The notes beneath the pieces are model-generated. The model saw only the letters and a list, made by a program, of their open reading frames with translations, was not told where the DNA came from and searched no databases. A stretch of DNA of 33,555 bases from Nitrososphaerota archaeon (GTDB lineage: Archaea > Thermoproteota > EX4484-205 > JAAOZP01), in assembly GCA_011605725.1 (NCBI GenBank), contig JAAOZP010000018.1, forward strand, positions 1-33,555. The letters are read 5' to 3'. A program made the translations under genes and the position numbers. Positions 1,298-25,477 of the stretch are shown here, piece by piece (position 1 is the first letter of the stretch; the number at the start of each line of letters is the position of its first letter).

Positions 1298-3073
1298 CTA
1301 GGCGAGTCCCAGTCTTTCAAGCGTTCTTCTCGTTGGGCGTCCTTCACTATCCCATCCTCTAGCTCTGTAATACTCGTCCAGCATCTGTTCTAGCTCTACA
1401 ACCTGCCCCTTAGTCGGCCCCATGGTCAAGGGCTCGCTCAGAAGCCTCCTTGGAAGAGTATCGTCTTTCCTGCCGAAACCTTCTCTAATGTTGAAAAGTC
1501 TCTCTAGGTTCCATATTCTCTCGCCCACAAGCATGAGGTCCTCAGCAGCATACTTTACCCCAGTTGCTGCCGAAAGCATTCTAGAGTAATACTCTTCGTC
1601 AAGCCCGTATCCGGTGAACCTGCAAGCTACAAGCGTATCCATGGCTGCGTAGAGGTTCTGCTGGTATATAACTAGGCCTGCCTTGTTAACTGTTGAAAAC
1701 CTGTCTATCCTCTTCGGAACCCCCAGTATTTCCAGGGCTATCATGTAGGACCTCAGGTGGCAGCCTCCTCTGTTGCTTGTAGCATACGCTAACCCTTGTC
1801 CTTTAGCTCCACGCGGGTCGTAAGCGGGCAACTCCAAGCCTTTAACCTGCATAGCTGCATCAGGATCCCCGTATTTCTCAGAGAGCCTACGCGACCCTTC
1901 TGCAAGATCGTTCCCGAAACCCTTCCTGTAAGCTGTTTTCTCAATCAGCTCAATCATCTTATCACCATCACCCCATTTTACTTTCTCAGGCGTCAAACCT
2001 TTCTCACTAAGCTCCATCGCGCAGGCTATTGTTACGCCTGTTGAAATAGTGTCCAGCCCAAGATCGTTGCATAAATGGTTCGCCCTCCAGATCGTCTCCA
2101 GATCCCAAAGCAGGCAGCATGAGCCAAGCGCATACACAGTCTCATACTCAGGTCCCTCGCCTCTAACACTGTCTAGACGAGTGTCCCTGCCACACGCGAT
2201 CCTGCATCCGAAGCACGCCTTAGGCTTAACCAGCAGTCTCCTAGTTATCTCCTCGCCAGCAATATTCTTAGCTTCAGGTAGGAAGGTTGCTTGAAAGTTT
2301 TTAGCAGGAAGCACGCCAAGCTCGTTCATAAGGTTTACGAGGACTGCGGTTCCAAACCTGGGTAGGGCTTTACTAGTAATAGGGTTTTGGCCGAAAACCC
2401 TGTTGCATTCTCCAACTACGAAGAGGAAAGTCTCCTTGTCAGCTATTTCAACCGTCTTACTTCCGTTTGCAACGATTGCCTTCAGCCTCTTTGAACCCAT
2501 TACTGCACCCACACCACCTCTCGCAGCAGACCTATAGTAGTCGTTCATTATACCCGCTATCCTCACAAGGTTTTCCCCAGCAGGACCTATGCACGCTACC
2601 CTTGCCTCTTTCCCGAATTTTTCAATCAGCTTGTCCGTGGTTTCAAACACTCTCATGCCCCAGTATTTCTCCCCATCTAAAACCTGTATATCCTTGTCGT
2701 CCATGTATATTATAACTGGGTTTTTAGCCGCTCCCCGGATTACGAGAGTGTCGACGCCACATGCTTTGAACTTGGTTGCGAAAAACCCTCCAGAGTTCGC
2801 GTCGAACACCGTGCCTGTCAACGGGGATTTGGTTGACACTGAAAACCTGCCTGACGTCGGTGCAGCTGTTGCCGTCAGCGGGCCGACTGCGAACACAAGC
2901 ACGTTGTCCTTGCTTAAAGGATCAACCTCTGGGCCCACGTTGTCATATATTATTTTAGTTCCTACTCCTCTTCCACCGATAAACCTGAGCTTCTCATCCT
3001 CGTCCCACTCGCGAAAAGTTATTTTTGAACTAGACAGGTCTACTTCTGCGATGGAGCCCATCCAGCCAGCCAT
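1298..3073 (-). CDS. aor: Aldehyde:ferredoxin oxidoreductase (W/Mo-bis-pterin, AOR family), copy 1
   Basis: 591 aa; KSPLTG, AARGGVGAVMGSKRLK, CFGCRIAC Fe-S motif, EGPEYET, GLDTIS, VKGLELPAYDPR, RGGCH, EYYRARGWD. Confidence 0.95.
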   Translation of the reverse strand: MAGWMGSIAEVDLSSSKITFREWDEDEKLRFIGGRGVGTKIIYDNVGPEVDPLSKDNVLVFAVGPLTATAAPTSGRFSVSTKSPLTGTVFDANSGGFFATKFKACGVDTLVIRGAAKNPVIIYMDDKDIQVLDGEKYWGMRVFETTDKLIEKFGKEARVACIGPAGENLVRIAGIMNDYYRSAARGGVGAVMGSKRLKAIVANGSKTVEIADKETFLFVVGECNRVFGQNPITSKALPRFGTAVLVNLMNELGVLPAKNFQATFLPEAKNIAGEEITRRLLVKPKACFGCRIACGRDTRLDSVRGEGPEYETVYALGSCCLLWDLETIWRANHLCNDLGLDTISTGVTIACAMELSEKGLTPEKVKWGDGDKMIELIEKTAYRKGFGNDLAEGSRRLSEKYGDPDAAMQVKGLELPAYDPRGAKGQGLAYATSNRGGCHLRSYMIALEILGVPKRIDRFSTVNKAGLVIYQQNLYAAMDTLVACRFTGYGLDEEYYSRMLSAATGVKYAAEDLMLVGERIWNLERLFNIREGFGRKDDTLPRRLLSEPLTMGPTKGQVVELEQMLDEYYRARGWDSEGRPTRRTLERLGLA

Positions 3074-3523: not shown

Positions 3524-4309
3524 ATGAAGTTCTCAGTTCAGGAGAACCTTGTCCCAGGTGCAAACTTGGAGGAGAAACTGAGGAGGCTTGAGAACTATGG
3601 CTATGACGGTATTGAGCTTTGGGGTAGACAGGAGCTCGGTGGAGCTTTAAAGAATGTTTTGGACGCATTATCTACAGCCAGGGTTAAGGTGAGCACTATT
3701 TGTTCAGGATACTCGGGAAGCCTGCTTTCTCCAAGAAGAGAAGATAGGGAAGCAGCATTGAAAGGAATAAAGGAAAGGCTTGAGTGGGCCAATAGGCTTG
3801 GTGCAGTAGGGGTTATAACTGTGCCCGTCTTCGGGGAAGCTACTGTTCCAGATCTCTCCCCCCTTTTCAAGGACAAGTTTGAACTGGAGTGGAAGCTTGC
3901 TGTTGAGGAATACAGGATTCTAGGGAAGCACGCGAGGGATGTTGGAAGCATAGTGATTGTGGAGCCGCTTAACAGGTATGAGACCCACTTCCTCAAGACG
4001 CTTTCCCAAGCCGCTTCGCTATGTGAAGAAGTCGGCTTAGACGAGGTGAGAATAATGGCTGACTATTTCCACATGAGTATTGAGGAGGCTGATATCGGGT
4101 TAAGCTTAAAGAATCATCTTGACAAGATTGCCCACGTGCATCTTGCCGACAGCAACAGGCTGACGCCTGGAAGAGGACATACTGATTTCAGTTCTTTAAG
4201 GGTTTTGAGAGAAGGAGGCTACAAGAATTATCTTACTCTAGAATGCGGAATACCCGGCGATCCTGAGGAAGAGTTAAGAAGAACCCTGGGCTTCCTTAAA
4301 TCGTTTTGA
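3524..4309 (+). CDS. Sugar phosphate isomerase/epimerase (xylose-isomerase-like TIM barrel; ketose 3-epimerase/IolO-like)
   Basis: Metal-site motifs EPLNRYET, DYFHM, HVHLADSNRLTPGRGH, TLEC. Confidence 0.88.
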   Translation: MKFSVQENLVPGANLEEKLRRLENYGYDGIELWGRQELGGALKNVLDALSTARVKVSTICSGYSGSLLSPRREDREAALKGIKERLEWANRLGAVGVITVPVFGEATVPDLSPLFKDKFELEWKLAVEEYRILGKHARDVGSIVIVEPLNRYETHFLKTLSQAASLCEEVGLDEVRIMADYFHMSIEEADIGLSLKNHLDKIAHVHLADSNRLTPGRGHTDFSSLRVLREGGYKNYLTLECGIPGDPEEELRRTLGFLKSF

Positions 4310-4347
4310 TTAAAGCAATACTGGTTAAGCGGTATGCTAGGTGAAAA

Positions 4348-5379
4348 TTGAAGCCTGTTGACCGTGTGTTCACTACGCTTAATCATGAGGAGCCTGACAT
4401 GGTTCCTTGCCTCTGGGCTGTGGCAGACGGTCTCAGACGGCTTCAAGAAGCTTTTAGAAACAGGGAGCTGCCTCAAGACCTTGTTGGAGTCGGGAGTCTT
4501 CCGGAGACTAGGGTTGTGGAACAATGTTCTGAATACAGGCTTTTAGAATCGGTTTTCGGAGACGTGCACCGTATCTCTTATAAAGTGGATTACGGTTACA
4601 GGGAGTTGGTTAAGCCAGCTGTCTCTAAACCAGAGGATCTTGATAGGCTTGAAGAGTTGAAGCTCGAGTTATCCAGGGAACATGTTAAGAGGATTAGGGA
4701 GAATGTTGAGAGAAACAGCGACCGCTTCACCTTCATAAGTCACGAGAGTCCTTTCGGCTTCGCGGCATACTCTTTAAGGGGTTTCAAACGGTTTCTTACA
4801 GACATGGTCGTGAACCCGGGTTTCGCCAAAAAGATTCTCAGCTTCGGAGTTAAGAGGCTCATGGAAATGTCGAGGCAAATAATAGAGGAAACTGGTGTTA
4901 ACGCTGTCTGGGTTTCAGGCGACTTGGGGGATAGTAACGGCCCATTCGTGTCGCCGAGGCTCTACAGTGAAATTCTTGAACCTTTTGACCGTGAGCTTTG
5001 CAGGACATACCATAGGCTGGGAGCCTACGTTTTCCTCCATAGCCATGGTAACTTAAACCTCATTCTCGACAGGATTGTGAACGCAGGGTTCGACGGCTTA
5101 AATCCTTTGGATGAGGCTGAAAACATGGTTCTCGCTTCTGTGAAAGAAAGATACGGGGGCAAGGTGACTCTGATACCTCAACCATCCACTTATAAATTGG
5201 AAAAGATGCCTAGAAACCTGATAGAGGAATATGTTGCAAGCCAGCTTCACGCCGGGGCTCATGATGGTGGGTTCATTTATTACGGTGTCATCGTTAACAT
5301 GCTTCTTGAAAATGCTGACGAGTATGTAAAGGCGTTTTTAAAATTGAGGAGTTACCCGTTGCAGTGTTGCAGGCGTTAG
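4348..5379 (+). CDS. Uroporphyrinogen decarboxylase/MtaA-like superfamily protein
   Basis: N-terminal 'RVFTTLNHEEPDMVP', RGFKRFLTDM, GDLGDSNGPFVSP, FLHSHGNL, GFDGLNPL; lacks the HemE RQAGR motif. Confidence 0.8.
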   Translation: MKPVDRVFTTLNHEEPDMVPCLWAVADGLRRLQEAFRNRELPQDLVGVGSLPETRVVEQCSEYRLLESVFGDVHRISYKVDYGYRELVKPAVSKPEDLDRLEELKLELSREHVKRIRENVERNSDRFTFISHESPFGFAAYSLRGFKRFLTDMVVNPGFAKKILSFGVKRLMEMSRQIIEETGVNAVWVSGDLGDSNGPFVSPRLYSEILEPFDRELCRTYHRLGAYVFLHSHGNLNLILDRIVNAGFDGLNPLDEAENMVLASVKERYGGKVTLIPQPSTYKLEKMPRNLIEEYVASQLHAGAHDGGFIYYGVIVNMLLENADEYVKAFLKLRSYPLQCCRR

Positions 5380-5498
5380 CCGTATGCGCATTATGCTTAC
5401 TGATCAAAAGCCCAGCCTTAGCCTGCCTTAAAATCTTTAAGCATTTTTCAAAGCAAAAGGCTTAAAAGATTATTGAGGCTTTTTAAAACGACGTCTTC

Positions 5499-6077
5499 AT
5501 GAGCATGGTTGAGAAAAAGATAGTTTACTTCAACACGCCTGGGAGAAACAATACCGAGACTGTGCTAGCTTTAGCGAGGAGAAGGGCTGAAGAGCTCGGC
5601 ATAAGAAGCATTGTCGTCGCATCTACAACCGGGGAAACTGGTGTTAAGGCTTCCCAGATGTTTAAAGGCTTCAACCTGGTTGTTGTAACTCATCATACTG
5701 GTTTCAAAGAACCTGGTAAACAGGAGTTAACGGAGGAGAACCGCAGGATAATAGAGGCGAACGGGGCGAAGGTTTACACTGGGACTCATGTCTTCATGAA
5801 TGTTGAAAGGGCGATAAGAAGCAAGTTTGACACGGCCTATCCTGCTGAGATAATGGCTCAGACGTTAAGGCTTTTCTGCGAGGGCATGAAGGTGGCTGTC
5901 GAGATCGTAGCCATGGCTGCGGACGCTGGTCTAATACCTGTAGACAGGGATGTGGTGAGCATAGCTGGAACAGGTAGAGGCGCCGACACCGCTATTATTG
6001 TCCAGCCCGCTAACTCTTCTAGAATATTCGATATGGTTATTAAAGAGATTATTGCTAAGCCTCTGAGCAGAGTATGA
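5499..6077 (+). CDS. MTH1675/COG1751-family protein (pyruvate kinase C-terminal alpha/beta-like domain)
   Basis: IVYFNTPGRNNT, IVVASTTGETG, VTHHTGF, EGMKVAVEIVAMAADAG, GTGRGADTA. Confidence 0.88.
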   Translation: MSMVEKKIVYFNTPGRNNTETVLALARRRAEELGIRSIVVASTTGETGVKASQMFKGFNLVVVTHHTGFKEPGKQELTEENRRIIEANGAKVYTGTHVFMNVERAIRSKFDTAYPAEIMAQTLRLFCEGMKVAVEIVAMAADAGLIPVDRDVVSIAGTGRGADTAIIVQPANSSRIFDMVIKEIIAKPLSRV

Positions 6078-6141: not shown

Positions 6142-6915
6142 TTGTTTGCCCAAATAGGGAAAGGACTTAGGTTAAGCAGGATTTTCTCTGGAGACGGGAA
6201 AACACTGATCATAAGTCTGGATGCTGCTTTCACGAGAGGACATGTTGAAAACGTGTTGGAAACGCGAAGCGTATTGACTAGTGTTTTAAAGTCTAATCCT
6301 GACGCTGTCCTACTTACCAGGGGCCAGGTTGTTAGGCTTGAAAGTCTTATTGGAGGCAGGGGACCCTCCATCATCTTAAGATCCGACTTCACGAATATTG
6401 TGGGGGGTTATACAGTATTGCCGCGTAAAAAACTCGAACACGTTAAGCTAGCTAGCCCTAGGGAGGCGTTGACCCTGGGTGTTGAAGGCGTTGCTGCTTA
6501 TCTTCTCGTGGGAGACGAGGATGCGGAGGCTGGAAGTATTAGAATTGTTTCAACACTTGTCTCTGGCTGCAGAAGACTCGGGCTTCCACTGCTCGTGGAG
6601 TCGATGGCAATAGGTGAACGGGTCACTCGGGCTAACCGTTTAGACTGTTTAAAGCTTGCTGTCAGGATGGCTGTTGAAGCGGGTGCCGATATAGTTGCAG
6701 CACCGTATGTTGGGGACGAGAAGTCCATGCGCGCAATCGTTGAAGTGGCTGGTGAAACCCCGGTTGTTGCTGTTGACGACCCCGAGATCCCCCTCTCGAA
6801 GCTTAGGGGTGCTCTATCGTCAGGATGCACCGGTCTCCTCTTAAGGGAAAGACTTGCCTCGGGCGGCGTGGAGGAAACCGTTGCGGAGGCCAGGCTTCTT
6901 GTCCACGGGTGTTAA
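6142..6915 (+). CDS. DhnA/class IA aldolase-like protein, predicted catalytically inactive
   Basis: Collinear paralog of the next gene, with GADIVAAPY in place of GADxxKxPY and DAA in place of DHG. GGAGG RBS at 6128-6132 precedes the TTG start. Confidence 0.8.
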   Translation: MFAQIGKGLRLSRIFSGDGKTLIISLDAAFTRGHVENVLETRSVLTSVLKSNPDAVLLTRGQVVRLESLIGGRGPSIILRSDFTNIVGGYTVLPRKKLEHVKLASPREALTLGVEGVAAYLLVGDEDAEAGSIRIVSTLVSGCRRLGLPLLVESMAIGERVTRANRLDCLKLAVRMAVEAGADIVAAPYVGDEKSMRAIVEVAGETPVVAVDDPEIPLSKLRGALSSGCTGLLLRERLASGGVEETVAEARLLVHGC

Positions 6916-6917
6916 GG

Positions 6918-8153
6918 ATGCGGACTGGAAAGAAGCTTAGGCTGAAAAGAATATTCGGCGGAGACGGGAGAGCTGTGGTTGTTGCTGCTGACCATGGGCT
7001 CATGCTTGGGCCGATAAGGGGAGTTGTCAACCTGAGGGAAACACTGACCAGGGTTATTCAAGGCGGTCCAGACGCTATTCTTCTAACCCCTGGGCAAGCA
7101 TCTAGCCTGATTGATCTTTTCTACGGGAGGGATGCGCCGGCACTTCTAGTTAGGGCTGATTGGACGAACGCTTTTAGGGATAAGACGTATACTCTTCCAG
7201 CCAGAGTTGTACGCGACGTGAACACGGTGAGAGTCGAGGATGCTTCAGCCTTAGGTGCCTCCGGAATAGTAGTGTATCTTTTCATGGGTTTAGGCGATGA
7301 GGATGAGGAGGCTAGAAACATTGAAACAGTATCAAGGTTTTCACGCGAATGCGAGAAACAAGGAATGCCCCTTATTGTCGAGCCTCTCCCAATGGGTGAA
7401 CGGGTGACGAAGGCAAACTATGTTGACCTGGTTGCTCTTTCAGTAAGGATTGCTGCAGAGCTTGGTGCAGATGCGCTTAAAGTCCCGTACACTGGCGACC
7501 CATACACTTTTGAAAAGATTGTAAAGGCTACTGACGGAATACCTGTGTTAGCCTTAGGCGGATACAGTGGAGTCACTGTGAGAGACTCGCTGGAGGTTGT
7601 TGAGGAGGTGATGCAGGCAGGTGGTTCCGGAATCGTCTACGGAAGGAATATAGTGCAGGCCCAGGATCCTGGAGAGATGGTGAGGCTCGTCAAGGCTGTG
7701 GTGCATGAGGGTAGAAGCGTCTTGGAAGTAGTGGGAGCCTCTAAGAAGGGGAGGATTTCCCTTACTGTGGATCCGGCTGCCTGCGTAGGCTGCAACCTGT
7801 GTGCCGCTGTCTGCAGCCTCTACCATGATGGAAAAATAAATATTGGGCGTGCGAGGCTCAGGATTATCCAGGAATGGCCGAGTGGAGCCAAACCGGTCAT
7901 ATGTGTTCAATGCGGAAAATGCATATCCGTCTGTCCAGCTGGAGCCTTAAAATGGGGCTTAAAGGGTAATGTTGAGCTTGTGGACGGCCTCTGCACGTCA
8001 TGCATGGCTTGCGTGGAAACCTGTCCTCAGAAGGTAATTAGGTTCGACGAGGAGAGGAGCGTTCCTCTTGTTTGCGACCTTTGCGGCGGAGTTCCACAGT
8101 GTTCAGAATGGTGTGGCACAGCAGCCATAAGGGTTGTTGAAAAAGGTGTTTGA
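6918..8153 (+). CDS. DhnA/class IA aldolase fused to a C-terminal 4x[4Fe-4S] ferredoxin domain
   Basis: Likely start is ATG 6918, 2 nt after the upstream stop (track start 6825 overlaps that gene). Motifs ADHG, GADALKVPY, LGG, YGRN, then 16 Cys in four groups from ~7780 to 8115. Confidence 0.88.
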   Translation: MRTGKKLRLKRIFGGDGRAVVVAADHGLMLGPIRGVVNLRETLTRVIQGGPDAILLTPGQASSLIDLFYGRDAPALLVRADWTNAFRDKTYTLPARVVRDVNTVRVEDASALGASGIVVYLFMGLGDEDEEARNIETVSRFSRECEKQGMPLIVEPLPMGERVTKANYVDLVALSVRIAAELGADALKVPYTGDPYTFEKIVKATDGIPVLALGGYSGVTVRDSLEVVEEVMQAGGSGIVYGRNIVQAQDPGEMVRLVKAVVHEGRSVLEVVGASKKGRISLTVDPAACVGCNLCAAVCSLYHDGKINIGRARLRIIQEWPSGAKPVICVQCGKCISVCPAGALKWGLKGNVELVDGLCTSCMACVETCPQKVIRFDEERSVPLVCDLCGGVPQCSEWCGTAAIRVVEKGV

Positions 8154-8154
8154 A

Positions 8155-9954
8155 ATGAAGGGTGGCTATGCAGGCAGGGTTCTAAGCTTCGACCTCTCCT
8201 CAAACAAGCCTAGGGTTGAGAATCTTGATGAGAAAGAGGCTTTCCTCCTACTTGGTGGAAAAGGTCTTGGAGCCCTCCATCTCTACAGGAGCCTAAGGGG
8301 CAAGGAGGATCCGTTTTCTCCTGAAAACCCAATCATAGTTTCGACCGGCCCGTTGACTGGAACAATTGCTCCAACAGGCACTAAGTTCAGCGTCGTGACT
8401 AAAAGCCCTCAGACCGGTGTTTTTCTAGATTCAAACTGCGGCGGAATGTTCGGGGTGCAGCTTAAGAGAGCCGGCTACGACATGCTTATCGTCAAAGGAG
8501 CCGCTGAAGAGCCTTCTATGCTAATAGTTGATGAAAATGGTGCTGAGCTTAGGCCTTGCAAACAATGGGGTAGGACTACGTTTGAAACCATCAGGGAGCT
8601 TAAGAAAGAGTTTCCAGACTACAGCTTTCTTATAGTTGGGCCAGCTGGTGAAAGGCTTGCTCCAATAGCGGGGCTGTTGACGGATGACGCGAGGTCCGCT
8701 GGCCGCGGAGGCTCCGGGGCAGTAATGGGCTCTAAAAGGCTGAAGGCAATCGTGGCAGGTGGCGGGAGACCAATAGAGGTTTATGATGTCGAAGGGATGA
8801 AAAGGGCCGCCTGGGTTGTTAGAAGGATGCTTAGGCTGCACGAGGTTACTGCGAGAAGCCTTCCTAGACATGGGACGGTGAACATAATAGAGGCTGTTAA
8901 CGAGATGGGTGCTCTTCCCACGAGAAACTTTCAGAAAGGAAGGTTTGAAGATGCAAGCGAGCTTTCAGGCGAAAAATGGAGGTCAAGCCTTTGGAAGACC
9001 GATAAGGGCTGCTATGGCTGCACTATAAGATGTGGAAAAATCGCTGTCTTGAACGACACGTGGGTAGACGGACCGGACTACGAGACCATATGGGCATTCG
9101 GCCCCAATTGTGGAGTCAAGGATGCTAGGGCGATAGCCATGGCTAACTATTTTTGCGACGCCTACGGCTTAGACACGATAAGCACGGGCGTAACCATAAG
9201 CTTCCTAATGGAACTCTATGAGAAAGGGTTCATCCAGGACCTGGACGGGTTAAAGCCTACTTGGGGGGACGACGAGGTCTTTCTCAGACTCGTGGAGAAG
9301 GCTTGCAAGGGCGAGGGTTGTGGAAGAATGATTGAGCAGGGTGTAGCTAGGGTAAGTAGAAAGTTCCCTGGCAGCGAGAGCTTCGCGATGCATGTTAAGG
9401 GGCTGGAGATGCCTGCTTACGAGCCTAGGGCTGCTAAAGGAATGGGTCTTGGCTACGCAACTAGTGACCGGGGAGCATGCCATCTTAGAGGATACACTGC
9501 TGGTCAGGAGCTGCTTGGATATGGTGGAGGTGTAGACCCGTACACTGTCGAGGGCAAGGCTAAGCTAGTAATGGATAGGCAGGATGAGAAGGCTGTGATA
9601 GACTCTTCAGGCCTATGCTTCTTCGCGTTCTACGCTATAACGCTTAAAGAGCTTCACCGCATGGTTGTTGCCTGCACTGGACAGCCATATAAAGACTGGT
9701 ATGAATTCATGAGGATAGGGGAAAGAATCTATAATCTGACGAGGCTTTTCAACGTGAGAGAAGGATTGACGAGGAAGGATGACACTCTGCCCGGCAGATT
9801 CTTAAACGAGCCCATGGCGGAAGGACCTGCGAAGGGGCAGGTGGTTGAGCTTGAACAAATGCTCTCCGAATACTATAGGCTTAGAGGCTGGAACGAGAAT
9901 GGTGAACCTATGAAGGAGACTATTGAAAGACTGGAGTTAAGCGAGCTACTGTGA
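8155..9954 (+). CDS. aor: Aldehyde:ferredoxin oxidoreductase (AOR family), copy 2
   Basis: ATG 8155 is 1 nt after the upstream stop, with AGGTG RBS at 8144-8148. Motifs KSPQTG, AGRGGSGAVMGSKRLK, CYGCTIRC, DGPDYET, GLDTIS, RGACH, EYYRLRGWN. Confidence 0.95.
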   Translation: MKGGYAGRVLSFDLSSNKPRVENLDEKEAFLLLGGKGLGALHLYRSLRGKEDPFSPENPIIVSTGPLTGTIAPTGTKFSVVTKSPQTGVFLDSNCGGMFGVQLKRAGYDMLIVKGAAEEPSMLIVDENGAELRPCKQWGRTTFETIRELKKEFPDYSFLIVGPAGERLAPIAGLLTDDARSAGRGGSGAVMGSKRLKAIVAGGGRPIEVYDVEGMKRAAWVVRRMLRLHEVTARSLPRHGTVNIIEAVNEMGALPTRNFQKGRFEDASELSGEKWRSSLWKTDKGCYGCTIRCGKIAVLNDTWVDGPDYETIWAFGPNCGVKDARAIAMANYFCDAYGLDTISTGVTISFLMELYEKGFIQDLDGLKPTWGDDEVFLRLVEKACKGEGCGRMIEQGVARVSRKFPGSESFAMHVKGLEMPAYEPRAAKGMGLGYATSDRGACHLRGYTAGQELLGYGGGVDPYTVEGKAKLVMDRQDEKAVIDSSGLCFFAFYAITLKELHRMVVACTGQPYKDWYEFMRIGERIYNLTRLFNVREGLTRKDDTLPGRFLNEPMAEGPAKGQVVELEQMLSEYYRLRGWNENGEPMKETIERLELSELL

Positions 9955-11876: not shown

Positions 11877-12602
11877 GTCGCGTTTACAGGCCTCGTAATA
11901 AGCGAGTTGGGGGGAGGCTACTTTTTCGGACTTTGCTCACTCCTCTACTTCGCCTCGCTCACCATAGTTCACCTCGGCTTAAGGGTTAAAGGCCATGCTT
12001 CGAATACGAGGAAGAGGATCGGAGGCGGTTCCGCGAGCCCCATCTCCAGGCTGGGAACCCCTTTTCTAGCGTTTCTCTCCGGAAGCATGCTCTTCTTCAT
12101 GGCTGATTTCACGAAGAACGTGTATGTGCCGATGTTCTACGCGTTTGAGCTGGGGCTCGGCATGGTGACAGCCACGCTGTTGCTGAGTCTCGCCAGCTGG
12201 CTAGAAATACCGCTTAACGTGTTTTTCGGCCACCTTTCGGATAGGCTTGGGCGTAAGACAATAGTGCTGGTCGCCTACGTGTTGTGCGCAACATACATGT
12301 TTGCCAACTCCACGGCCAGTGGCTTTGAAGGGGCTCTGCTCGCCATGGTGCTCTACAGCTTCGTCTGGGGGGCTTTCTCCGGGGCTAGTTCAGCATTTGC
12401 CTCCGAGCTTGTCGACCAGGATAAAAAGGGTTTTGCCATGGGCCTGTTCAACTCTTCCCGGAACATAGCGAGCATGCTCACCCCGATGTCGATCGGCCTG
12501 CTTAGCCAGGCCTACGGGTATAGGTTGACTTTCAGCACTATGGGTGTTTTAATGCTTATAGCGTGCCTCATCATCGTCATCGGGATAAGAAGGAAAGCTT
12601 AA
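11877..12602 (+). pseudogene. N-terminally truncated MFS transporter
   Basis: Frame opens only after TAA at 11874. Contains the C-terminal-half MFS motif GHLSDRLGRK and KKGFAMGLFN; ~240 aa versus ~400 for a full MFS. Confidence 0.7.
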
Positions 12603-12607
12603 CAGCC

Positions 12608-13336
12608 TCAGCGTCCTTCCAGCTCTTCCAGCTTTCTCCTAACCAGTTCAACCAGATGGTCCACTATGATGTCTACAGCCTTTCTTCCAAGCTCCCGCGA
12701 GGCAACAGTTCTAAGGTCCTCCCGCCACTCCCACACCGGGTTTTCACGATAATAGTTGTATGGCGCATCAGGATAGTTATGCACCTTAATCCTCCCGGGT
12801 TTGAAGTCCTCAAGCACCGTGAGGTGGGGATACATGTACCAGAACATCGAGGTCTCCCACTTGCCAGCATGATCCGCAGGCGTTTCCCCGTCGACCTCAA
12901 CGCCCTCATACTCAGGCTGGACAGTCACATGAATATCCGGGTGACACCTGTTAAAATCATCCGCCACTCCCTTTAGGCAGTCGACTTGACAGGGACCGTA
13001 GTGACCGGTTACGACGAGTATAAGCTTCGCCCCAACCTTCCTCAGCTGCTCAAAGAGCTCCCAGAAGAGCATTCGAATCAAACCGTCGCTGAACGTTAAG
13101 GTTCCTACGTATGTTGAAAAACCCGGTCTCCCCCAATAGTTAGGGGGGAGAACTATGCCGCCTCCAAGCTTCTCAGCGACCCGCAGACATATGCCGTAAG
13201 CTTTTAACGCGTCTTGTCCAAGGGGCAGATGGTCACCATGCCATTCGAGAAGACCCGTCGGAACTATGAAGACAGGCATTTTTTCAACAGCTTCTAGAAA
13301 TTCCCTAGGAGTCATCTCCTCATACCTAATCTTCAT
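12608..13336 (-). CDS. Creatininase-family amidohydrolase
   Basis: PTGLLEWHGDHLPLGQD, TGHYG, DHAGKWETS. Confidence 0.9.
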   Translation of the reverse strand: MKIRYEEMTPREFLEAVEKMPVFIVPTGLLEWHGDHLPLGQDALKAYGICLRVAEKLGGGIVLPPNYWGRPGFSTYVGTLTFSDGLIRMLFWELFEQLRKVGAKLILVVTGHYGPCQVDCLKGVADDFNRCHPDIHVTVQPEYEGVEVDGETPADHAGKWETSMFWYMYPHLTVLEDFKPGRIKVHNYPDAPYNYYRENPVWEWREDLRTVASRELGRKAVDIIVDHLVELVRRKLEELEGR

Positions 13337-13474
13337 AAGTGGATCCTTTTAGCATACTATACTTAAATTTTTAAGTCGGTTTGCAAATAATAGTTCCATT
13401 GCGACACGCAGCATGTACTTTACTGCCAATAGAGGTAACTTTAAATGAATCCTTTTAAGATTGCAGACTGAGAT

Positions 13475-14653
13475 TTGAAGGCGATGAGAGAACGGAAGGT
13501 GAAATGTGGAGTCGTGGGATGTGGCGTTGTTGCTAACGAGGCCTATTTCCCAGCCATAGTGGAAAAGGGTGAGCTTGTGGCAACGTGCGACAAGATTGAG
13601 GAAAGAGCTAGGAGAAGCATGGAGCTGTGGGGTGCTAAAGAGTACTATACGGATGTTGACGAGATGCTGAGAAAAGCCAATATCGAAGCTGTCTTCATAC
13701 TCTCAGGCATGGGTATGCATGCAGACCATGCAACGAGGGCAGCCAGGGCTGGGAAACACGTCTTGATTCAGAAGCCGTTGGCGACAACCATGAGGGATGC
13801 GAGGAAAGTTTTCAACGCGATTAAAAAGGCTGGTGTTAAGGCGCTTGTCGAGCCGAACGTGCAGATGAACCCTTTATACCTGAAGGCTAAAAGCATATTG
13901 GAGGAAGGAACCATAGGAGAGGTCTACTGGTTTAGAGCAGGACTGGGGAGAGGCCCACCCACTTGGGGCGAGGAAACCTTCTTCACTAGGCAGGCAGGAG
14001 GACCTCTTTTCGACCTTGGAGTATACCAAATAGCTGCACTAACCTTCCTTTTAGGCCCGGCTTCATCAGTGACTGGAATGGCGAAGATCTCGATACCGGA
14101 GAGGTTCATAGTTCCTGAAGAATTCTTTACGGAACACCTTTCCCAAAAGCCCTACGAGCCGTTCTGGAAGAAGCTTGCTACTGCAAAACCCACTAAACGG
14201 ATAAAAATGGAGGCGGAGGACAACACGTTCACGCTGTTAAGTATGAGGAGTGGAAGCCTCGGGTGTGTCATAGCCAACTTCGTTACTCCAGACGGTCTTA
14301 GGAATGGTGTTGGAAACATGCCTGATATAGAAATTTACGGTAGTGATGGCGCCCTATTCCTAGGCGGGTCGGCAGCGATATCCGTAATGACGAAGCGTAA
14401 GGATAGCAAGTATTATTCGCCGGAAGGCTGGTATTGTATTCCCAAGCAGGATTTCCCATCCTGGAACTACTATAGAGCGTCAACTGAACACTTTTTCAAC
14501 TGCATACTGAACGATGAGGAGCCTCTTCCAAGCCTAGAATGGGGTATGCATGTCAGTGAAATAATGATAAAGTCGATTCAGTCCTCGAGAACTGGAAACA
14601 GGCTGAGGGTTTTATCGAGTTTTAAGTGGAAGGGTGAAAGTGTTGAGTGTTAA
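13475..14653 (+). CDS. Gfo/Idh/MocA-family NAD(P)-dependent oxidoreductase
   Basis: GVVGCGVVA Rossmann motif, GKHVLIQKPLA, GGPLFDLGVY, EDN, IEIYGSDG; start may be ATG 13484. Confidence 0.92.
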   Translation: MKAMRERKVKCGVVGCGVVANEAYFPAIVEKGELVATCDKIEERARRSMELWGAKEYYTDVDEMLRKANIEAVFILSGMGMHADHATRAARAGKHVLIQKPLATTMRDARKVFNAIKKAGVKALVEPNVQMNPLYLKAKSILEEGTIGEVYWFRAGLGRGPPTWGEETFFTRQAGGPLFDLGVYQIAALTFLLGPASSVTGMAKISIPERFIVPEEFFTEHLSQKPYEPFWKKLATAKPTKRIKMEAEDNTFTLLSMRSGSLGCVIANFVTPDGLRNGVGNMPDIEIYGSDGALFLGGSAAISVMTKRKDSKYYSPEGWYCIPKQDFPSWNYYRASTEHFFNCILNDEEPLPSLEWGMHVSEIMIKSIQSSRTGNRLRVLSSFKWKGESVEC

Positions 14654-14669
14654 AGGCTGGGCAATCCGG

Positions 14670-15500
14670 CTAGTATTTTTCTAAGAATGCTTTGCCACGC
14701 CTAATGGATTCGACAACGTCAATACCGGTTTCATCCTCGATCGCGAACCATCCTGAATAGTTTATCGACTTTAACGCGTTTACGTAATCATCCCAGGGCA
14801 CTAGGCCTTCACCCACTGTTGCACGCTTCGTCACCGGGTTGTAATCCTTAGCATGAGTATGTACAATCCATGGGGCTAGGGTCCTCACACCCTCAACCAC
14901 ACCGTAGCGAAGCATGTTTGCAGGATCATAGTTAACCTTCAGTCCTTCGCTGCCAACTTCCTCCAGCAGACGCCTAAGGACCTCAGCCGGCTCCTGCCCT
15001 GTCTCTATGCAGAATGCGGCGCCAACCTGTTCAGCATGCTTAGCAAGAATCCTGCAGGAATTGAGCATCACTCTATACTTATTGCTCGACGCGTCCGAAG
15101 GGATTTCACCGGGATGGGTCGTAACCACTTTCGAACCCATGTCTGAAGCCAGCTCCAGAGCCCTCATGGTTTTCTCAATCCTCTTCTCAAGACCCCTCGG
15201 GTCTCCGAGAGCGGAGCCTGGCCATGGCATACCGGGGTCCATTGGTCCTGTGAGTTGAGCGCAGAACCCGGTTATCTCAAGCCCATATGACTCCACAAGC
15301 TCCAGAATCCTCCTCCTTTCAACGCCTACACACCTATCCGGGTCCAGGAAGCATGGTTCCGAAGACGAGTAGTCGACGCAAAAGAGTTGCACGCCTTTGA
15401 CGCCGATTCTACTTGCTGTTTCAAGAGCCGCTTTAAACTCTGGCTCGTTCCTAGTTAATCCCAACGACCATAATGCTACACCTATTTTCAGGCTTCCCAT
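14670..15500 (-). CDS. Sugar phosphate isomerase/epimerase (TIM barrel)
   Basis: IETGQE, VNYDPANM, HTHAKD, GEGLVPW, AIEDE. Confidence 0.88.
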   Translation of the reverse strand: MGSLKIGVALWSLGLTRNEPEFKAALETASRIGVKGVQLFCVDYSSSEPCFLDPDRCVGVERRRILELVESYGLEITGFCAQLTGPMDPGMPWPGSALGDPRGLEKRIEKTMRALELASDMGSKVVTTHPGEIPSDASSNKYRVMLNSCRILAKHAEQVGAAFCIETGQEPAEVLRRLLEEVGSEGLKVNYDPANMLRYGVVEGVRTLAPWIVHTHAKDYNPVTKRATVGEGLVPWDDYVNALKSINYSGWFAIEDETGIDVVESIRRGKAFLEKY

Positions 15501-15669
15501 TTTTAACCGTTTTTAGAGAGAAGTTAAAGAATATTAGTCTTTTCCTCGTGAACCGTCCCCTCTCTCCGTTCGGATGAAAAGTCCGGAGCCTTCTAATTCT
15601 TCTTCAAACAGTGTAAAGCATTTAAGGATGAGACTGGTTGAAATACTGAGACTGACGGGGGCCGTTGAG

Positions 15670-17088
15670 ATGGGTGAAAAAGAGCAGCTTTACCAGGAAA
15701 GGTTAAAACGCTATTTAACCGCTATGCGTAATGAAAAACCTGATCGCATCCCGATTCGCCCTTTCGTCGCCGAGTTTACTGCGAAGTATGCCGGCTATAC
15801 GTGTCAGGAGGTGACGCATGACTACAGGAAGGCTTTTGAAGCAGTGTTGAAATGCGCCAGGGATTTCGACTGGGATGCGATGGTCGCCAACATGGTATAC
15901 GTCTGGACAGGTTTAACACAGGCCTTGGGCTTGAAGTACTATGCTACACCCGGCGTAGACATTCCTCCCAACACGGCGTTCCAATATCTTGAGCCTCCTG
16001 AGGAGAAAGCTTTTATGAAGCCGGATGAGTATAACTTACTGATTGACGACCCGACGGCTTTCCTGTACAACGTCTGGCTGCCACGCGTCTCAAGCGAAGT
16101 AAGTGTGGAAGCATCAGGCTCCCAGTATAGAAGCAGGCTTGCGCTAGTAAAGGGAGCCATGGCGATGAGTGAATACTTTAACGCGTTTGGACACCAAGTG
16201 GAGAGAATGCGAAGGGAGGCTGGAACCGTATCCGCTATAGCAGGTATTCTCAAAGCCCCTCTCGATATTATTGCTGATAAGCTGCGCGGCTATGTCGGCT
16301 TAGCTAAGGATCTGCACCGGCAACCTGAAAAAGTGCTTGAAGCCTGTGAAGCACTTGCTCCACACTTGACAGAGGTCGCACGAATGACCGCCGACCCTGA
16401 GAAGAAAGTGCCAATAGGCTTCTGGATGCATCGCACCTCTATACCATTCATCAGCATGAACCATTTTAAAAACATTCACTGGCGCACTCTGAAGCCTATC
16501 ATAGAGGAGCTCTGGGCTCATGGATATCGAGTTCTTTTCTACGCTGAAGGAGACTGGACGCCGCACCTAGACAGTTTTGCTGAACTTCCCGAGGGCAGCA
16601 TAGTCTTCCACATAGATAGAAGCGACTTCTCTGAAACGCATAGGAAGCTGGGCCGTAGGTTCTGTTTAAGCGGAGGCCTGCCGAACTGGCTGCTTACCAT
16701 CGGGACGCCTGACGAGGTTTGCCGCTACTGTAAGAAGATCATTGACACCATTGCTTCAGACGGGGGATACATTATGGATGCGTCAGCAATTATTCAGAAC
16801 GATGCCAAGGTGGAAAACGTGAAGGCGATGACTGATTTTACACGCAACTATGGTAAGTATGAACGGGGCTCGGAGGGTTTGGAGCATTCTAGTCAGGAAA
16901 CAGTTGCTAATAGGCCGAAAGCCATTTTGAAAAAGCCGGGTGTGAAACCTGGTTCCTGCATTCCTTGGGATGAGAAACGTAGAGAGATTCTAGGGATCTC
17001 TGGGGATGAGGGTCTGTTAAAAAGGATCTGGGAGGAGATCGATTCACTCGGATACTTATTCATCTGGCAGGTGTTACTGTCTTTCTAA
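15670..17088 (+). CDS. URO-D/MetE-like superfamily protein, long type (possible corrinoid-dependent MT1-like methyltransferase)
   Basis: ERLKRYLTAMRNEKPDRIP, LRGYVGL, FYAEGDW, LSGGLP, GTPDEV, DGGYIMD, ENVKAM plus ~75 aa C-terminal extension. ATG 15670 is preferred over 15574. Confidence 0.78.
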   Translation: MGEKEQLYQERLKRYLTAMRNEKPDRIPIRPFVAEFTAKYAGYTCQEVTHDYRKAFEAVLKCARDFDWDAMVANMVYVWTGLTQALGLKYYATPGVDIPPNTAFQYLEPPEEKAFMKPDEYNLLIDDPTAFLYNVWLPRVSSEVSVEASGSQYRSRLALVKGAMAMSEYFNAFGHQVERMRREAGTVSAIAGILKAPLDIIADKLRGYVGLAKDLHRQPEKVLEACEALAPHLTEVARMTADPEKKVPIGFWMHRTSIPFISMNHFKNIHWRTLKPIIEELWAHGYRVLFYAEGDWTPHLDSFAELPEGSIVFHIDRSDFSETHRKLGRRFCLSGGLPNWLLTIGTPDEVCRYCKKIIDTIASDGGYIMDASAIIQNDAKVENVKAMTDFTRNYGKYERGSEGLEHSSQETVANRPKAILKKPGVKPGSCIPWDEKRREILGISGDEGLLKRIWEEIDSLGYLFIWQVLLSF

Positions 17089-21195: not shown

Positions 21196-22472
21196 AGCCC
21201 ATAGGTGCTTTCATCAGCCTTAAGGCTCTGAAGGAGTATGGAAACCGGCTTTTAGAGGAGTATGGTATAGAATACGCGCATACGCATCTACCTGTTTTCC
21301 CAGAGGAGGCTAGAGAGCTTTACAGTGGTGTAAAATGCCTCCCGGAAAACTTTGAGAAAGAATCGTATGGTGATCTTAAGAGGCTTCTCGAAGAGCTGCG
21401 TAGAATAGGCTTGAAAATCTTTGCCAGTTATCCTGTTTTCAGCAGGCCGGAGATAGCTAGAAGAGGAGCAGAGTACTCCGCATGGACAATCCTTGGAAAG
21501 CCTCATTATGCTCGTGCCTGCCCAACAAACCCTGATGTTTTAAGAAGAATAGTTGCTGATCTTCGAAGCCTCGTGAAACTATATGGGGTTGAGGGAGTCA
21601 TACTCGACTTCATCAGGTTTGAAAGCCCAATGGCTGGTTTAGACTATTTCTTAACATGCTTCTGCCCTAGTTGCTGCGAAAATATGAGGAGCCTAGGTTA
21701 TAACCCTGTTTCAATCAAGAGAGACTGGTTGAGAATGATGGATTTCCTCGGTAAAGGAGGCTTTCCAAAAGAGATAGTTAAACAGGGAACCCTGAGCACT
21801 CCAGACGTTCTGGATCTTTACAACGAGTTTCCCGGAGTTTTCGAATGGTTCAAGTATAGAAGCGAATATATCGAGAGCGTTGTTAAGATTTTTGCTTCAA
21901 CAGTTAAAGAGGAAGGAGGCCGTGGAACAGTCGTTGGCGCAAATCTTCTGTCACCCTGGTGGAGCCTTCTGGCAGGTCAAAGCTATAGGGCTTTGAGCAG
22001 GATTCTCGAAATTATTGAGCCGATGCTATATTTCGACTGGATGCAGTGGGAAGGCTTAACAGCAGTCAAGGAGCTCAGCCATGCTTACGGTGTCGACAAG
22101 AATCTTTTAAGCAAGTTTTACTACGTGGCTACTGGATTAAGCACTATAGTTGAGCCGCGAAACTATGATGAATCAAGGCTTTCAGGATTGCCTCCGGCTT
22201 CAATAGAAGCGGGTCTTGCGAAAATCTCCTACTGGAATATTGGAGGAGCTAGAATATGGCCAGTCGTACTGATCCTCCGCACCGACATCGTGCACCATCT
22301 GCTTAATGAACGTATTTCGAACATCTCCATGGCTACGAGAGAGTTTTTCGTGGAGAGTGTTAAATCGGCGGCACGCGGCAACGCTGATGGATTAGTGTAC
22401 TGGAACTTTGACGGTGCTGAGAAAGATGTTGTACGAGAGCTTTACAATGTTTGGAGGGCTGAAAGCGGTTAA
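21192..22472 (+). CDS. Putative glycoside hydrolase-like TIM barrel (GHL10-like), paralog of upstream gene
   Basis: ACPTNP, LDFIRF, CFCPSC, GQSY, PMLY; ATGA overlap with the upstream stop. Confidence 0.7.
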   Translation: MKPIGAFISLKALKEYGNRLLEEYGIEYAHTHLPVFPEEARELYSGVKCLPENFEKESYGDLKRLLEELRRIGLKIFASYPVFSRPEIARRGAEYSAWTILGKPHYARACPTNPDVLRRIVADLRSLVKLYGVEGVILDFIRFESPMAGLDYFLTCFCPSCCENMRSLGYNPVSIKRDWLRMMDFLGKGGFPKEIVKQGTLSTPDVLDLYNEFPGVFEWFKYRSEYIESVVKIFASTVKEEGGRGTVVGANLLSPWWSLLAGQSYRALSRILEIIEPMLYFDWMQWEGLTAVKELSHAYGVDKNLLSKFYYVATGLSTIVEPRNYDESRLSGLPPASIEAGLAKISYWNIGGARIWPVVLILRTDIVHHLLNERISNISMATREFFVESVKSAARGNADGLVYWNFDGAEKDVVRELYNVWRAESG

Positions 22473-25411: not shown

Positions 25412-25477
25412 GAAGCCTTTCAGTTGCGGCATTTATATAAATCTTTTGAGAATATGCATACTGAGTTTCATGAGGCC

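What the first reader, a model, noticed from the sequence alone, without database searches (positions are those of the whole stretch)
6918..8153. Class I aldolase fused in frame to a four-cluster ferredoxin, with an atypical acid/base position
Seen: one ORF with a ~270-aa TIM barrel, a short linker and 16 Cys (CVGCNLCAAVC, CVQCGKCISVCP, CTSCMACVETCP, CDLCGGVPQCSEWC), the DmsB/CooF/AorA-type pattern. The barrel has IVEPLP where archaeal FBP aldolase and ADH synthase have YPRG. Inference: a Rosetta-stone fusion tying a non-redox lyase to an electron-transfer subunit, with a substrate other than fructose-1,6-bisphosphate.
Basis: partly seen in the sequence, partly recalled or inferred. Interest (0 to 1): 0.75.

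Follow-up and report, generated by a model that had tools for sequence, protein, structure and literature searches.

The report
Aldolase fused to tungsten-enzyme electron subunit
A sugar-phosphate-splitting enzyme is fused to the iron-sulfur "wire" subunit of a tungsten aldehyde oxidoreductase, in a fixed three-gene unit found in at least 100 uncultured archaeal and bacterial species; this points to an undescribed complex that releases an aldehyde and oxidises it at once.

Summary
ORF 6918-8153 (+) encodes 411 aa: a DhnA-type class I aldolase barrel (aa 1-273), a short linker, and a 16-Cys four-cluster domain (aa 282-408). That domain is closest to the small subunits of tungsten aldehyde oxidoreductases (WOR5-S, AorA). 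The fusion is not an artefact: it recurs in 100 GTDB species (Brockarchaeota-like kin, Bathyarchaeia, Hadarchaeota, Asgard, Chloroflexota).

An AOR gene follows it immediately, and a Lys-less aldolase paralogue usually precedes it. In 71 of 71 fusions the Schiff-base Lys, the general-base Asp and all phosphate-binding residues are invariant. The Tyr of archaeal FBP aldolase and ADH synthase is always aliphatic, and a Glu two residues upstream is invariant. This "atypical" position is the hallmark of a large, mostly unfused subfamily.

The genome has its own ADH synthase, class II FBP aldolase and GAPDH. A complex prediction docks the Fe-S domain on the AOR (0.92 against 0.00 for controls; like complexes are solved).

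Best reading: a DHAP-releasing aldolase tethered to an AOR that oxidises the aldehyde product. The substrate is unknown. I found no paper on it. This scan has met the same trio before on other DNA.

The parts
6142..6915 (+). Lys-less aldolase paralogue ('par', 257 aa), probably a non-catalytic partner subunit
   Evidence: PF01791 at 2e-9 and 37% identity to the fusion. The Schiff-base Lys is Ala, the GG loop is deleted and GRN is changed. Across 67 par proteins the Lys is lost in 63. It is the sister clade of the fusion's barrel. Its stop codon lies 2 nt before the fusion's ATG.
6918..7736 (+). Aldolase domain of the fusion (aa 1-273). Key residues: Asp25, His26, Glu155 (7380-7382), Leu157 (7386-7388), Lys188 (7479-7481), Gly214/215, Gly242/Arg243
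   Evidence: Best solved relatives are 2qjg at 2e-38, 1ojx at 2e-31 and LsrF at 4e-18. The AF2 barrel is confident, and the top fold hits are ADH synthase, FBPA and LsrF. The catalytic and phosphate-binding residues are invariant in 71 of 71 fusions.
7737..7760 (+). Short linker (aa 274-281)
   Evidence: The frame is continuous. Linker length is conserved among relatives.
7761..8153 (+). Four-[4Fe-4S] ferredoxin domain (aa 282-411), with Cys motifs at 7782-7814, 7902-7937, 7992-8027 and 8073-8114, plus the stop codon
   Evidence: Matches are WOR5-S 6x6u_B at 3e-20, AorA 8c0z_C at 7e-20 and 9mqx_E at 2e-18. Of 71 fusions, 63 carry 16-17 Cys in this pattern. It is predicted to dock on the AOR through motifs I and IV.
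8155..9954 (+). Tungsten-type aldehyde:ferredoxin oxidoreductase. The ATG at 8155 is 1 nt after the fusion's stop; an in-frame TTG at 8134 would overlap the fusion by 20 nt
   Evidence: AFOR_N at 5e-64 and AFOR_C at 5e-136. Solved relatives are 1aor at 1.7e-150, 9mqx_D and AorB 8c0z_A. An AOR lies immediately downstream of the fusion in 7 of 7 looked-up loci and 52 script-called loci.
3524..6077 (+). Upstream same-strand genes: an IolO-like xylose-isomerase-fold epimerase (3524-4309), a URO-D-like protein (4348-5379) and a PK_C-domain protein (5499-6077)
   Evidence: Pfam and NCBIfam assignments. The same order is seen only in the closest kin, L008-L012, so this is lineage-specific context and not part of the core unit.

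Best explanation
The gene encodes the middle subunit of a three-part enzyme. Its C-terminal four-cluster domain is the small electron-transfer subunit of the AOR encoded directly downstream. It docks next to the AOR's own [4Fe-4S] cluster, as AorA does on AorB and WOR5-S on WOR5-L. Its N-terminal barrel is a catalytically competent Schiff-base (class I) aldolase that binds a phosphorylated ketone of the DHAP type. Glu155 serves as acid/base in place of the Tyr used by archaeal FBP aldolase and ADH synthase. The aldolase cleaves a ketose phosphate (not FBP) into DHAP and a non-phosphorylated aldehyde. The tethered AOR oxidises that aldehyde to the acid. Electrons leave through the four clusters to ferredoxin. 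The Lys-less paralogue is a structural partner of the barrel. Shown here: the architecture, conservation of the catalytic residues, fixed synteny, and homology of the Fe-S domain. Inferred: physical coupling of the two active sites, direction of flux, and the substrate. Candidate aldehydes are lactaldehyde, glyceraldehyde, glycolaldehyde, sulfolactaldehyde, or malonate/tartronate semialdehyde.
For: Domain calls and solved relatives support the two-domain reading.

The fusion occurs in more than 100 protein clusters and 100 species. An AOR lies directly downstream in 7 of 7 looked-up loci. In 52 script-called loci the fusion-AOR distance is -151 to +75 nt, within -20 to +16 nt in 44 of them, and par lies upstream in 45 of those 52.

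In 71 of 71 fusions Asp25, His26, Lys188, Gly214/215, Gly242/Arg243 and Glu155 are invariant. These map onto the general base, Schiff-base Lys and phosphate binders defined for LsrF, FBPA and ADH synthase (PMC2728841).

Par and the fusion barrel are sister clades with mirrored topology.

Complex prediction of AOR with fusion aa 274-411 scored 0.92, against 0.00 for the best of 3 controls. That mark was reached by 58 of 80 solved complexes and 2 of 110 mismatched pairs. The runs agree in at least 97% of contacts, and partner pLDDT is at least 87. The interface joins the AOR stretch 288-299, which holds the Cys293/296/300 motif, to fusion motif I. Like complexes are solved (8c0z, 6x6u, 9mqx), so this pass shows likeness, not that this copy binds.

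The AOR pocket keeps the aromatic residues of AOR sensu stricto: F497 and Y500 align with AorB F511 and F514.

Neighbours are sugar kinases (FGGY, PfkB), xylose-isomerase-fold isomerases or epimerases, LarA (456.7 bits against a cut-off of 460), GlcD-like oxidases and TauE.

The nearest unfused relative sits in a polyol-dehydrogenase / FGGY-kinase / ABC-transporter operon.
Against: No biochemical data exist. The substrate could not be fixed: the flanking genes differ between lineages, and only par, the fusion and the AOR are constant. Eight Chloroflexota loci and two archaeal loci already carry another aldolase beside the unit, so the fused barrel need not be the pathway's only aldolase. No model shows that the aldolase active site faces the AOR substrate channel. 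The AOR's nearest solved relative (P. furiosus AOR) works without a small subunit. No aldolase-FeS-AOR triple fusion was found (weak evidence).
Confidence: 0.6

Rival explanations
1. Same complex, opposite direction. The AOR reduces a carboxylic acid with low-potential ferredoxin, and the tethered aldolase traps the unstable aldehyde by condensing it with DHAP, which pulls an uphill reaction towards a sugar phosphate.
For: AORs are the only known enzymes that reduce non-activated acids (PMC9295118 abstract). In a coupled assay, removing the aldehyde doubled acid reduction by a bacterial AOR (PMC10816221). The nearest characterised aldolase relative, ADH synthase, works in the condensing direction.
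Against: The neighbours are catabolic: kinases, LacI regulators, glycoside hydrolases and sugar ABC/MFS transporters.
Confidence: 0.12
2. The fusion serves assembly only. The barrel, with par, forms a DhnA-type ring that organises several AOR / Fe-S units, perhaps replacing the AorA filament. The aldolase and the AOR act on chemically unrelated substrates.
For: All solved DhnA-type enzymes are D5 decamers (PMC2728841 and PMC4881948). The fusion lacks the C-terminal tail of about 23 aa that AorA uses to polymerise. A catalytically dead paralogue is conserved. R79, D81 and R87 are conserved in par as well, which suggests a structural role for them.
Against: All catalytic and phosphate-binding residues are invariant in 71 of 71 fusions, so the barrel is under selection as an enzyme. 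An aldolase product is by definition an AOR-type substrate.
Confidence: 0.15
3. It is an ordinary glycolytic pair: an FBP aldolase plus a GAPOR-like oxidoreductase that converts FBP to DHAP and 3-phosphoglycerate.
For: Public annotations call relatives 'fructose-bisphosphate aldolase'. A bacterial GAP oxidoreductase clade with an AorA-like subunit is known (PMC10413684).
Against: The aldolase scores 160.5 bits against the 430 cut-off of NF040816, and the AOR scores 56 bits against the 1300 cut-off for GAPOR. Tyr146 and Arg148 are replaced. The AOR pocket is of the aromatic AOR type. The genome has a class II FBA and a GAPDH.
Confidence: 0.05
4. The fusion is an assembly or frameshift artefact that joins two separate genes.
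For: One 3-kb read-assembly contig (L090) has overlapping separate DeoC (275 aa) and Fer4 (137 aa) calls.
Against: The fused frame recurs in 100 species and more than 100 clusters from independent assemblies, including contigs longer than 1 Mb. L090 also has a truncated AOR, which fits sequencing errors.
Confidence: 0.01

Closest known systems
AOR-family enzymes with a separate four-cluster small subunit: AorAB(C) of Aromatoleum aromaticum (PDB 8c0z), WOR5-L/S of Pyrococcus furiosus (6x6u, 6x1o) and the 9mqx tungsten oxidoreductase
   Same: It has a catalytic AOR subunit plus a 16-Cys subunit of about 130 aa, encoded next to each other. The Fe-S domain matches these small subunits at about 1e-20. 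It is predicted to dock beside the AOR [4Fe-4S] cluster.
   Different: Here the small subunit carries a complete class I aldolase at its N-terminus and lacks the C-terminal tail that AorA uses to form filaments. No AorC-like FAD subunit lies in the locus. A dead aldolase paralogue is part of the unit.
Archaeal class IA FBP aldolase (T. tenax, 1ojx) and ADH synthase (M. jannaschii MJ0400, 2qjg)
   Same: It has the same barrel (TM-score about 0.88 on the target) and 30-34% identity. The Schiff-base Lys, general-base Asp and phosphate-binding His/GG/GR are the same.
   Different: The proton-shuttle Tyr is Leu, Arg148 is Met, and Glu sits at the Trp144 position. It scores far below both curated cut-offs. 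The genome has a true ADH synthase in an aro operon.
LsrF (3-hydroxy-5-phosphonooxypentane-2,4-dione thiolase, 3gkf/4p2v)
   Same: It is a DhnA-type barrel that also lacks the Tyr. It shares the xRAx strand-3 motif. Both are associated with an FGGY-family kinase.
   Different: LsrF's proposed substitute residue, Asp251, is Val here. The match is only 110 bits against a cut-off of 297. LsrF has no redox partner.
DmpFG/BphIJ aldolase-dehydrogenase complexes (from my own knowledge, not tested here)
   Same: Functional analogy only: an aldolase is physically coupled to the enzyme that oxidises its aldehyde product, so a toxic aldehyde is not released.
   Different: There is no homology. Those use a class II pyruvate aldolase and an NAD/CoA-dependent dehydrogenase as separate subunits. 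This one would use a class I aldolase, a tungsten enzyme and ferredoxin.

Membership tests
DeoC/LacD (DhnA-type) class I aldolase superfamily | TIM barrel matching PF01791, with a Schiff-base Lys on strand 6 | tested here: met
   The match is 120.3 bits against a cut-off of 23.8. Lys188 aligns with Tt Lys177 and LsrF Lys203 and is invariant in 71 of 71 fusions.
DeoC/LacD (DhnA-type) class I aldolase superfamily | Phosphate-binding His, GG loop and GR motif, and a general-base Asp | tested here: met
   His26, Gly214/215, Gly242/Arg243 and Asp25 are invariant in 71 of 71 fusions. Their roles are as described in PMC2728841.
Archaeal class IA fructose-bisphosphate aldolase (NF040816) | Score above the curated equivalog cut-off | tested here: not met
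   160.5 bits against a cut-off of 430.
Archaeal class IA fructose-bisphosphate aldolase (NF040816) | Proton-shuttle Tyr146 in the motif WSYPRG | tested here: not met
   Leu157 occupies that position. The position is Leu, Ile, Val or Met in 71 of 71 fusions.
ADH synthase (TIGR01949) | Score above the cut-off, and placement in an aro/DKFP pathway context | tested here: not met
   169.9 bits against a cut-off of 299.45. The genome's true ADH synthase (324 bits) sits in an asd-ADHS-DHQS II-aroD operon elsewhere.
AorA/WOR5-S-type small subunit of AOR-family tungsten enzymes | About 130 aa with 16 Cys in four motifs, and sequence similarity to solved small subunits | tested here: met
   Matches are 6x6u_B at 3.2e-20, 8c0z_C at 6.9e-20 and 9mqx_E at 2.2e-18. 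Of 71 fusions, 63 carry the full pattern.
AorA/WOR5-S-type small subunit of AOR-family tungsten enzymes | Encoded beside, and binding to, an AOR catalytic subunit | tested here: met
   Adjacency holds in all loci examined. The docking prediction scored 0.92 against a best control of 0.00; this is likeness to solved complexes, not proof of binding.
AorA sensu stricto (filament-forming subunit of AorABC) | Conserved C-terminal helix of about 20 aa that mediates polymerisation, and an AorC FAD subunit | tested here: not met
   The fusion ends 3 aa after the region that aligns with AorA 38-169 of 192. Tails after the last Cys are 10-20 aa in most relatives. The helix's role is from PMC10413684. 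No AorC-like gene lies in the window's cluster.
Aldehyde:ferredoxin oxidoreductase (for the partner gene 8155-9954) | AFOR_N plus AFOR_C domains, the [4Fe-4S] Cys motif, and AOR-type aromatic pocket residues | tested here: met
   One search gives the domains. Cys293/296/300 are invariant in A3. F497 and Y500 align with AorB F511 and F514. The metal (W or Mo) cannot be tested with these tools.

The most novel reading that the evidence does not exclude
The unit is a ferredoxin-driven carbon-carbon bond-forming machine. The AOR reduces a free carboxylic acid, and the tethered aldolase immediately condenses the aldehyde with DHAP. This would give anaerobes an undescribed route from organic acids into sugar phosphates, with the tether overcoming the unfavourable acid/aldehyde potential. 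A second unexcluded variant is that the barrel eliminates phosphate from DHAP to give methylglyoxal, which the AOR oxidises to pyruvate: a ferredoxin-linked bypass of lower glycolysis.
Probability: 0.1. Interest if true: 0.9.

Novelty: new variant of a known kind. Interest (0 to 1): 0.7.

Why it matters
AOR-family tungsten enzymes are abundant and highly expressed in uncultured anaerobes, but their physiological substrates are mostly unknown. A covalent link between an aldolase and the AOR's electron subunit gives a rare direct clue: the aldehyde comes from cleavage of a sugar phosphate. If confirmed, this would be the first class I aldolase / tungsten-enzyme coupling complex. It would be a ferredoxin-yielding alternative to NAD-dependent aldehyde dehydrogenases in sugar catabolism. 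It would also correct a common annotation: relatives are labelled 'fructose-bisphosphate aldolase' in Bathyarchaeia, Brockarchaeota, Asgard and Chloroflexota genomes, and those labels are used to infer glycolysis. It further exposes a large uncharacterised Glu-type branch of DhnA aldolases.

Tried and rejected
FBP aldolase and ADH synthase membership are rejected, because the scores fall below the cut-offs, the Tyr is absent, and the genome has its own enzymes.

An artefactual fusion is rejected. The one split form, L090, looks like a frameshifted low-coverage contig.

A search for longer proteins (721-2055 aa) that would also include the AOR found none. This is weak evidence.

I tried to identify the substrate from neighbours. 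Clustering 1137 ORFs from 80 loci, plus Pfam and NCBIfam scans, gave recurring themes. These were FGGY and PfkB kinases, AP_endonuc_2, LarA, GlcD-like, TauE, creatininase/IolN-like and GFO_IDH_MocA proteins. No single pathway emerged.

Contexts of two more unfused relatives lay on contigs too short to help.

Eight literature searches and five papers read found no description of the fusion. The primary T. tenax and MJ0400 structure papers are not held. So the role of Arg148 as the 6-phosphate binder rests on my memory only.

No FBPase_3 (FBP aldolase/phosphatase) was found in a genome that is 93% complete.

Full report
**Observation.** The frame from ATG 6918 to the stop at 8151-8153 is open and encodes 411 aa. 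A longer frame from 6825 exists, but every relative begins at the Met of 6918. The upstream gene stops 2 nt before that Met. Pfam finds a DeoC/LacD aldolase (1.3e-34, aa 20-247) and several 4Fe-4S families over aa 282-408.

HMMER alignments to solved structures pair LIVEPLPMG of this protein with LVVWSYPRG of T. tenax FBP aldolase and LIAMMYPRG of M. jannaschii ADH synthase. So Trp144 becomes Glu155, Tyr146 becomes Leu157 and Arg148 becomes Met159.

**What the two halves are.** The barrel's best solved relatives are ADH synthase 2qjg (2e-38), T. tenax FBPA (about 1e-32) and LsrF (4e-18). The Fe-S domain's best relatives are the small subunits of tungsten oxidoreductases: WOR5-S 6x6u_B (3e-20), AorA 8c0z_C (7e-20) and 9mqx_E (2e-18).

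The next gene (8155-9954) is an AOR: 1aor at 1.7e-150, 9mqx_D, and AorB 8c0z_A. Its ATG is 1 nt after the fusion's stop. The previous gene (6142-6915) is a 257-aa paralogue of the barrel (37% identity). In it the Schiff-base Lys is Ala, and the GG and GR phosphate motifs are gone.

An AlphaFold2 model of the fusion is confident (pLDDT 84, pTM 0.78). One loop is disordered at aa 87-96, inside a family-specific insertion. Foldseek ranks ADH synthase, FBPA and LsrF first, followed by a sulfohexulose-1-phosphate aldolase and LacD.

**Recurrence.** A search of 5.8 billion proteins lists 120 best hits, nearly all 403-444 aa with both domains. Sources name Bathyarchaeota, Brockarchaeota, Thermoproteota, Loki/Promethearchaeota and Chloroflexia. 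A scan of one genome per GTDB species found 100 species; 80 loci were kept. The nearest (84-90% identity) are Brockarchaeota-like archaea, which places the window's organism.

In all seven loci looked up by identity, an AOR follows the fusion directly. My own ORF calling and clustering on the 80 loci plus the window gave further counts. There were 71 fusions. In 52 loci the fusion is followed on the same strand by an AOR of 595-650 aa. The distance is -151 to +75 nt, and within -20 to +16 nt in 44 loci. In 45 of those 52, par lies immediately upstream. In one Promethearchaeota locus par lies after the AOR instead. The remaining loci are truncated contigs or artefacts of my crude ORF caller in GC-rich Chloroflexota.

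**Is the barrel an enzyme?** The LsrF structure paper defines the shared active site of this family (PMC2728841). It comprises a Schiff-base Lys, an Asp general base, and phosphate binding by a His, a GG loop and a GR motif. The residue that dehydrates the carbinolamine differs between lineages: Glu in rabbit FBPA, Tyr in T. tenax FBPA and ADH synthase, and possibly Asp251 in LsrF.

In 71 of 71 fusions, Asp25, His26, Lys188, Gly214/215 and Gly242/Arg243 are invariant. The Tyr position is always Leu, Ile, Val or Met. Glu155, two residues earlier on the same strand (strand 152-158 in the model), is invariant. T. tenax entry 1w8s differs from the wild-type 1ojx at exactly these positions, reading VVESFPRG. 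Glu mutants of LacD are among the fold hits. I therefore infer that Glu155 is the acid/base.

In par the Lys is lost in 63 of 67 sequences and the GG loop is deleted in 52 of 67. Arg79, Asp81 and Arg87 are mostly kept, which argues that these three residues are structural.

**The Glu-type barrel is not special to the fusion.** Among the 150 nearest representatives of 1.84 billion 50%-identity clusters, 111 are single-domain proteins of about 260-290 aa with Glu155 and Lys188 and no Tyr. Only 12 are Tyr-type. Ten of the single-domain proteins, scanned against NCBIfam, all fall below the equivalog cut-offs. So this is a large uncharacterised branch of DhnA aldolases.

The closest unfused member (51% identity) lies between a Zn-dependent polyol-type dehydrogenase and an FGGY kinase. 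A sugar ABC transporter and a LarA-like gene are nearby. Two archaeal loci have a further unfused Glu-type paralogue beside an FGGY kinase, next to the unit.

**Not FBA, not ADH synthase.** The fusion scores 160.5 bits against 430 for the archaeal FBA model and 169.9 against 299.45 for ADH synthase. The window's genome is 2.23 Mb and 93% complete. It has a true ADH synthase (324 bits) in an asd-ADHS-DHQS II-aroD operon, a DERA, a class II FBA and a GAPDH. It also has four AORs.

**History.** In a tree of 28 barrels, 28 pars and outgroups, par and the fusion form reciprocally exclusive sister groups (SH-aLRT 94 and 92). Par has longer branches. In both halves the Chloroflexota form one clade (support 100). 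That clade groups, weakly (82-83), with the same Bathyarchaeia-like archaea. One old duplication, followed by transfer of the pair as a unit, is the simplest reading.

**Link to the AOR.** A complex prediction of the AOR with fusion aa 274-411 scored 0.92, against 0.00 for the best of 3 controls. That mark was reached by 58 of 80 solved complexes and 2 of 110 mismatched pairs. The runs agree in at least 97% of contacts, and partner pLDDT is at least 87. The interface joins AOR residues 288-299, which hold the cluster motif Cys293/296/300, to fusion residues 290-311 and 398-401 (Cys motifs I and IV). That is the geometry expected for electron transfer. Like complexes are solved (8c0z, 6x6u, 9mqx), so the pass shows likeness rather than binding.

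The fusion ends 3 aa after the stretch that aligns with AorA, while AorA has 23 more residues. According to PMC10413684, those residues mediate filament formation. The same paper lists AorA-like subunits only for the AOR(Aa), GOR, WOR5 and Bam clades.

AorB's substrate-contacting Phe511, Phe514 and Tyr468 align with F497, Y500 and Y454 here. F497 is at least 90% conserved among the unit's AORs. That fits an uncharged aldehyde better than glyceraldehyde-3-phosphate.

**Context and substrate.** Only par, the fusion and the AOR are constant. The counts below are loci out of 80.
- LarA-like: 22 loci. A Brockarchaeota copy scores 456.7 bits against the 460 cut-off for lactate racemase.
- Xylose-isomerase-fold proteins: three clusters, in 20, 18 and 6 loci. 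The best hits are the IolO epimerase, psicose epimerase and xylose isomerase.
- TauE: 20 loci, directly after the AOR in Anaerolineae.
- PfkB kinase: 17 loci, with IolC as the best hit.
- FGGY kinase: 17 loci.
- UPF0261: 16 loci.
- GlcD-like FAD oxidase: 12 loci.
- Creatininase/IolN-like: 12 loci.
- GFO_IDH_MocA: 10 loci.
- Fucose-isomerase-like plus a class II ketose-bisphosphate-type aldolase: 8 loci.

In archaeal loci the commonest flanking families are URO-D-like, AP_endonuc_2, GT4 and FGGY. A Promethearchaeota locus adds a GlcD-like oxidase and Etf genes, and a Bathyarchaeota locus adds a lactate permease.

The window itself carries an IolO-like epimerase, a URO-D-like gene and a PK_C-domain gene upstream. 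Downstream it carries a creatininase-family gene, a GFO_IDH_MocA gene, another AP_endonuc_2 gene, GH2 and GH38 hydrolases and an MFS transporter.

The theme is sugar catabolism that produces 2-hydroxy acids. Lactaldehyde to lactate is the single best guess. Glyceraldehyde, glycolaldehyde, sulfolactaldehyde and malonate or tartronate semialdehyde are not excluded.

**Verdict.** The fusion is real, ancient and widespread. Its Fe-S half is the AOR's small subunit, and its aldolase half is almost certainly active on a DHAP-type phosphoketone that is not FBP. The coupling of aldol cleavage to tungsten-dependent aldehyde oxidation is the most economical explanation, but it is inferred. Direction, substrate and quaternary structure are open.

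I found no paper on it. Earlier notes of this scan describe the same trio in at least 24 other genomes and reach the same reading. I read them after forming my reading and did not use them as evidence.

Noticed in passing
window 1298-3073 (-): There is a second, divergently oriented AOR paralogue (591 aa) about 3.8 kb upstream of the unit. It sits at the same place in the closest kin (L008, L009, L012). The genome has four AORs in all.
   Followed up: partly
window 12608-17088: This stretch holds a creatininase-family gene (-), a GFO_IDH_MocA dehydrogenase (+), an AP_endonuc_2 gene (-) and a URO-D-like gene (+). With the IolO-like gene at 3524-4309, this echoes the enzyme families of the Thermotoga inositol route (IolG/IolM, IolN, IolO). 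The same families flank the unit in Anaerolineae.
   Followed up: partly
window 5499-6077 (+): A stand-alone 192-aa protein consists only of a pyruvate-kinase C-terminal (effector-binding) domain. It lies directly upstream of par and is conserved in the five closest loci only. It may be a sugar-phosphate-binding regulator.
   Followed up: no
P0028, P0061, P0067, P0082 (Bathyarchaeia relatives); alignment A1 columns 340-375: Some fusions have lost two Cys of motif II and carry a 15-21-aa insertion there, so they probably bind three clusters instead of four.
   Followed up: partly
L003/L033 7332-9154; also L066, L073, L083: In several long-read Chloroflexia MAGs the AOR after the fusion is called as two ORFs (AFOR_N and AFOR_C). 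This is probably a set of frameshift errors and not a real split.
   Followed up: no
L025:6369-7208(-), L030:2295-3164(-): A third, unfused, Lys-bearing Glu-type DeoC paralogue (motifs AADHRQRG, LEPLY, ALKIPY) lies next to an FGGY kinase, divergent from the unit, in Hadarchaeota-like MAGs.
   Followed up: partly
window 17085-19847 (-) and 22469-25432 (-): GH2 and GH38 (alpha-mannosidase-type) glycoside hydrolases, and an MFS transporter fragment at 11907-12602, show that the surrounding region is a carbohydrate-utilisation island.
   Followed up: no
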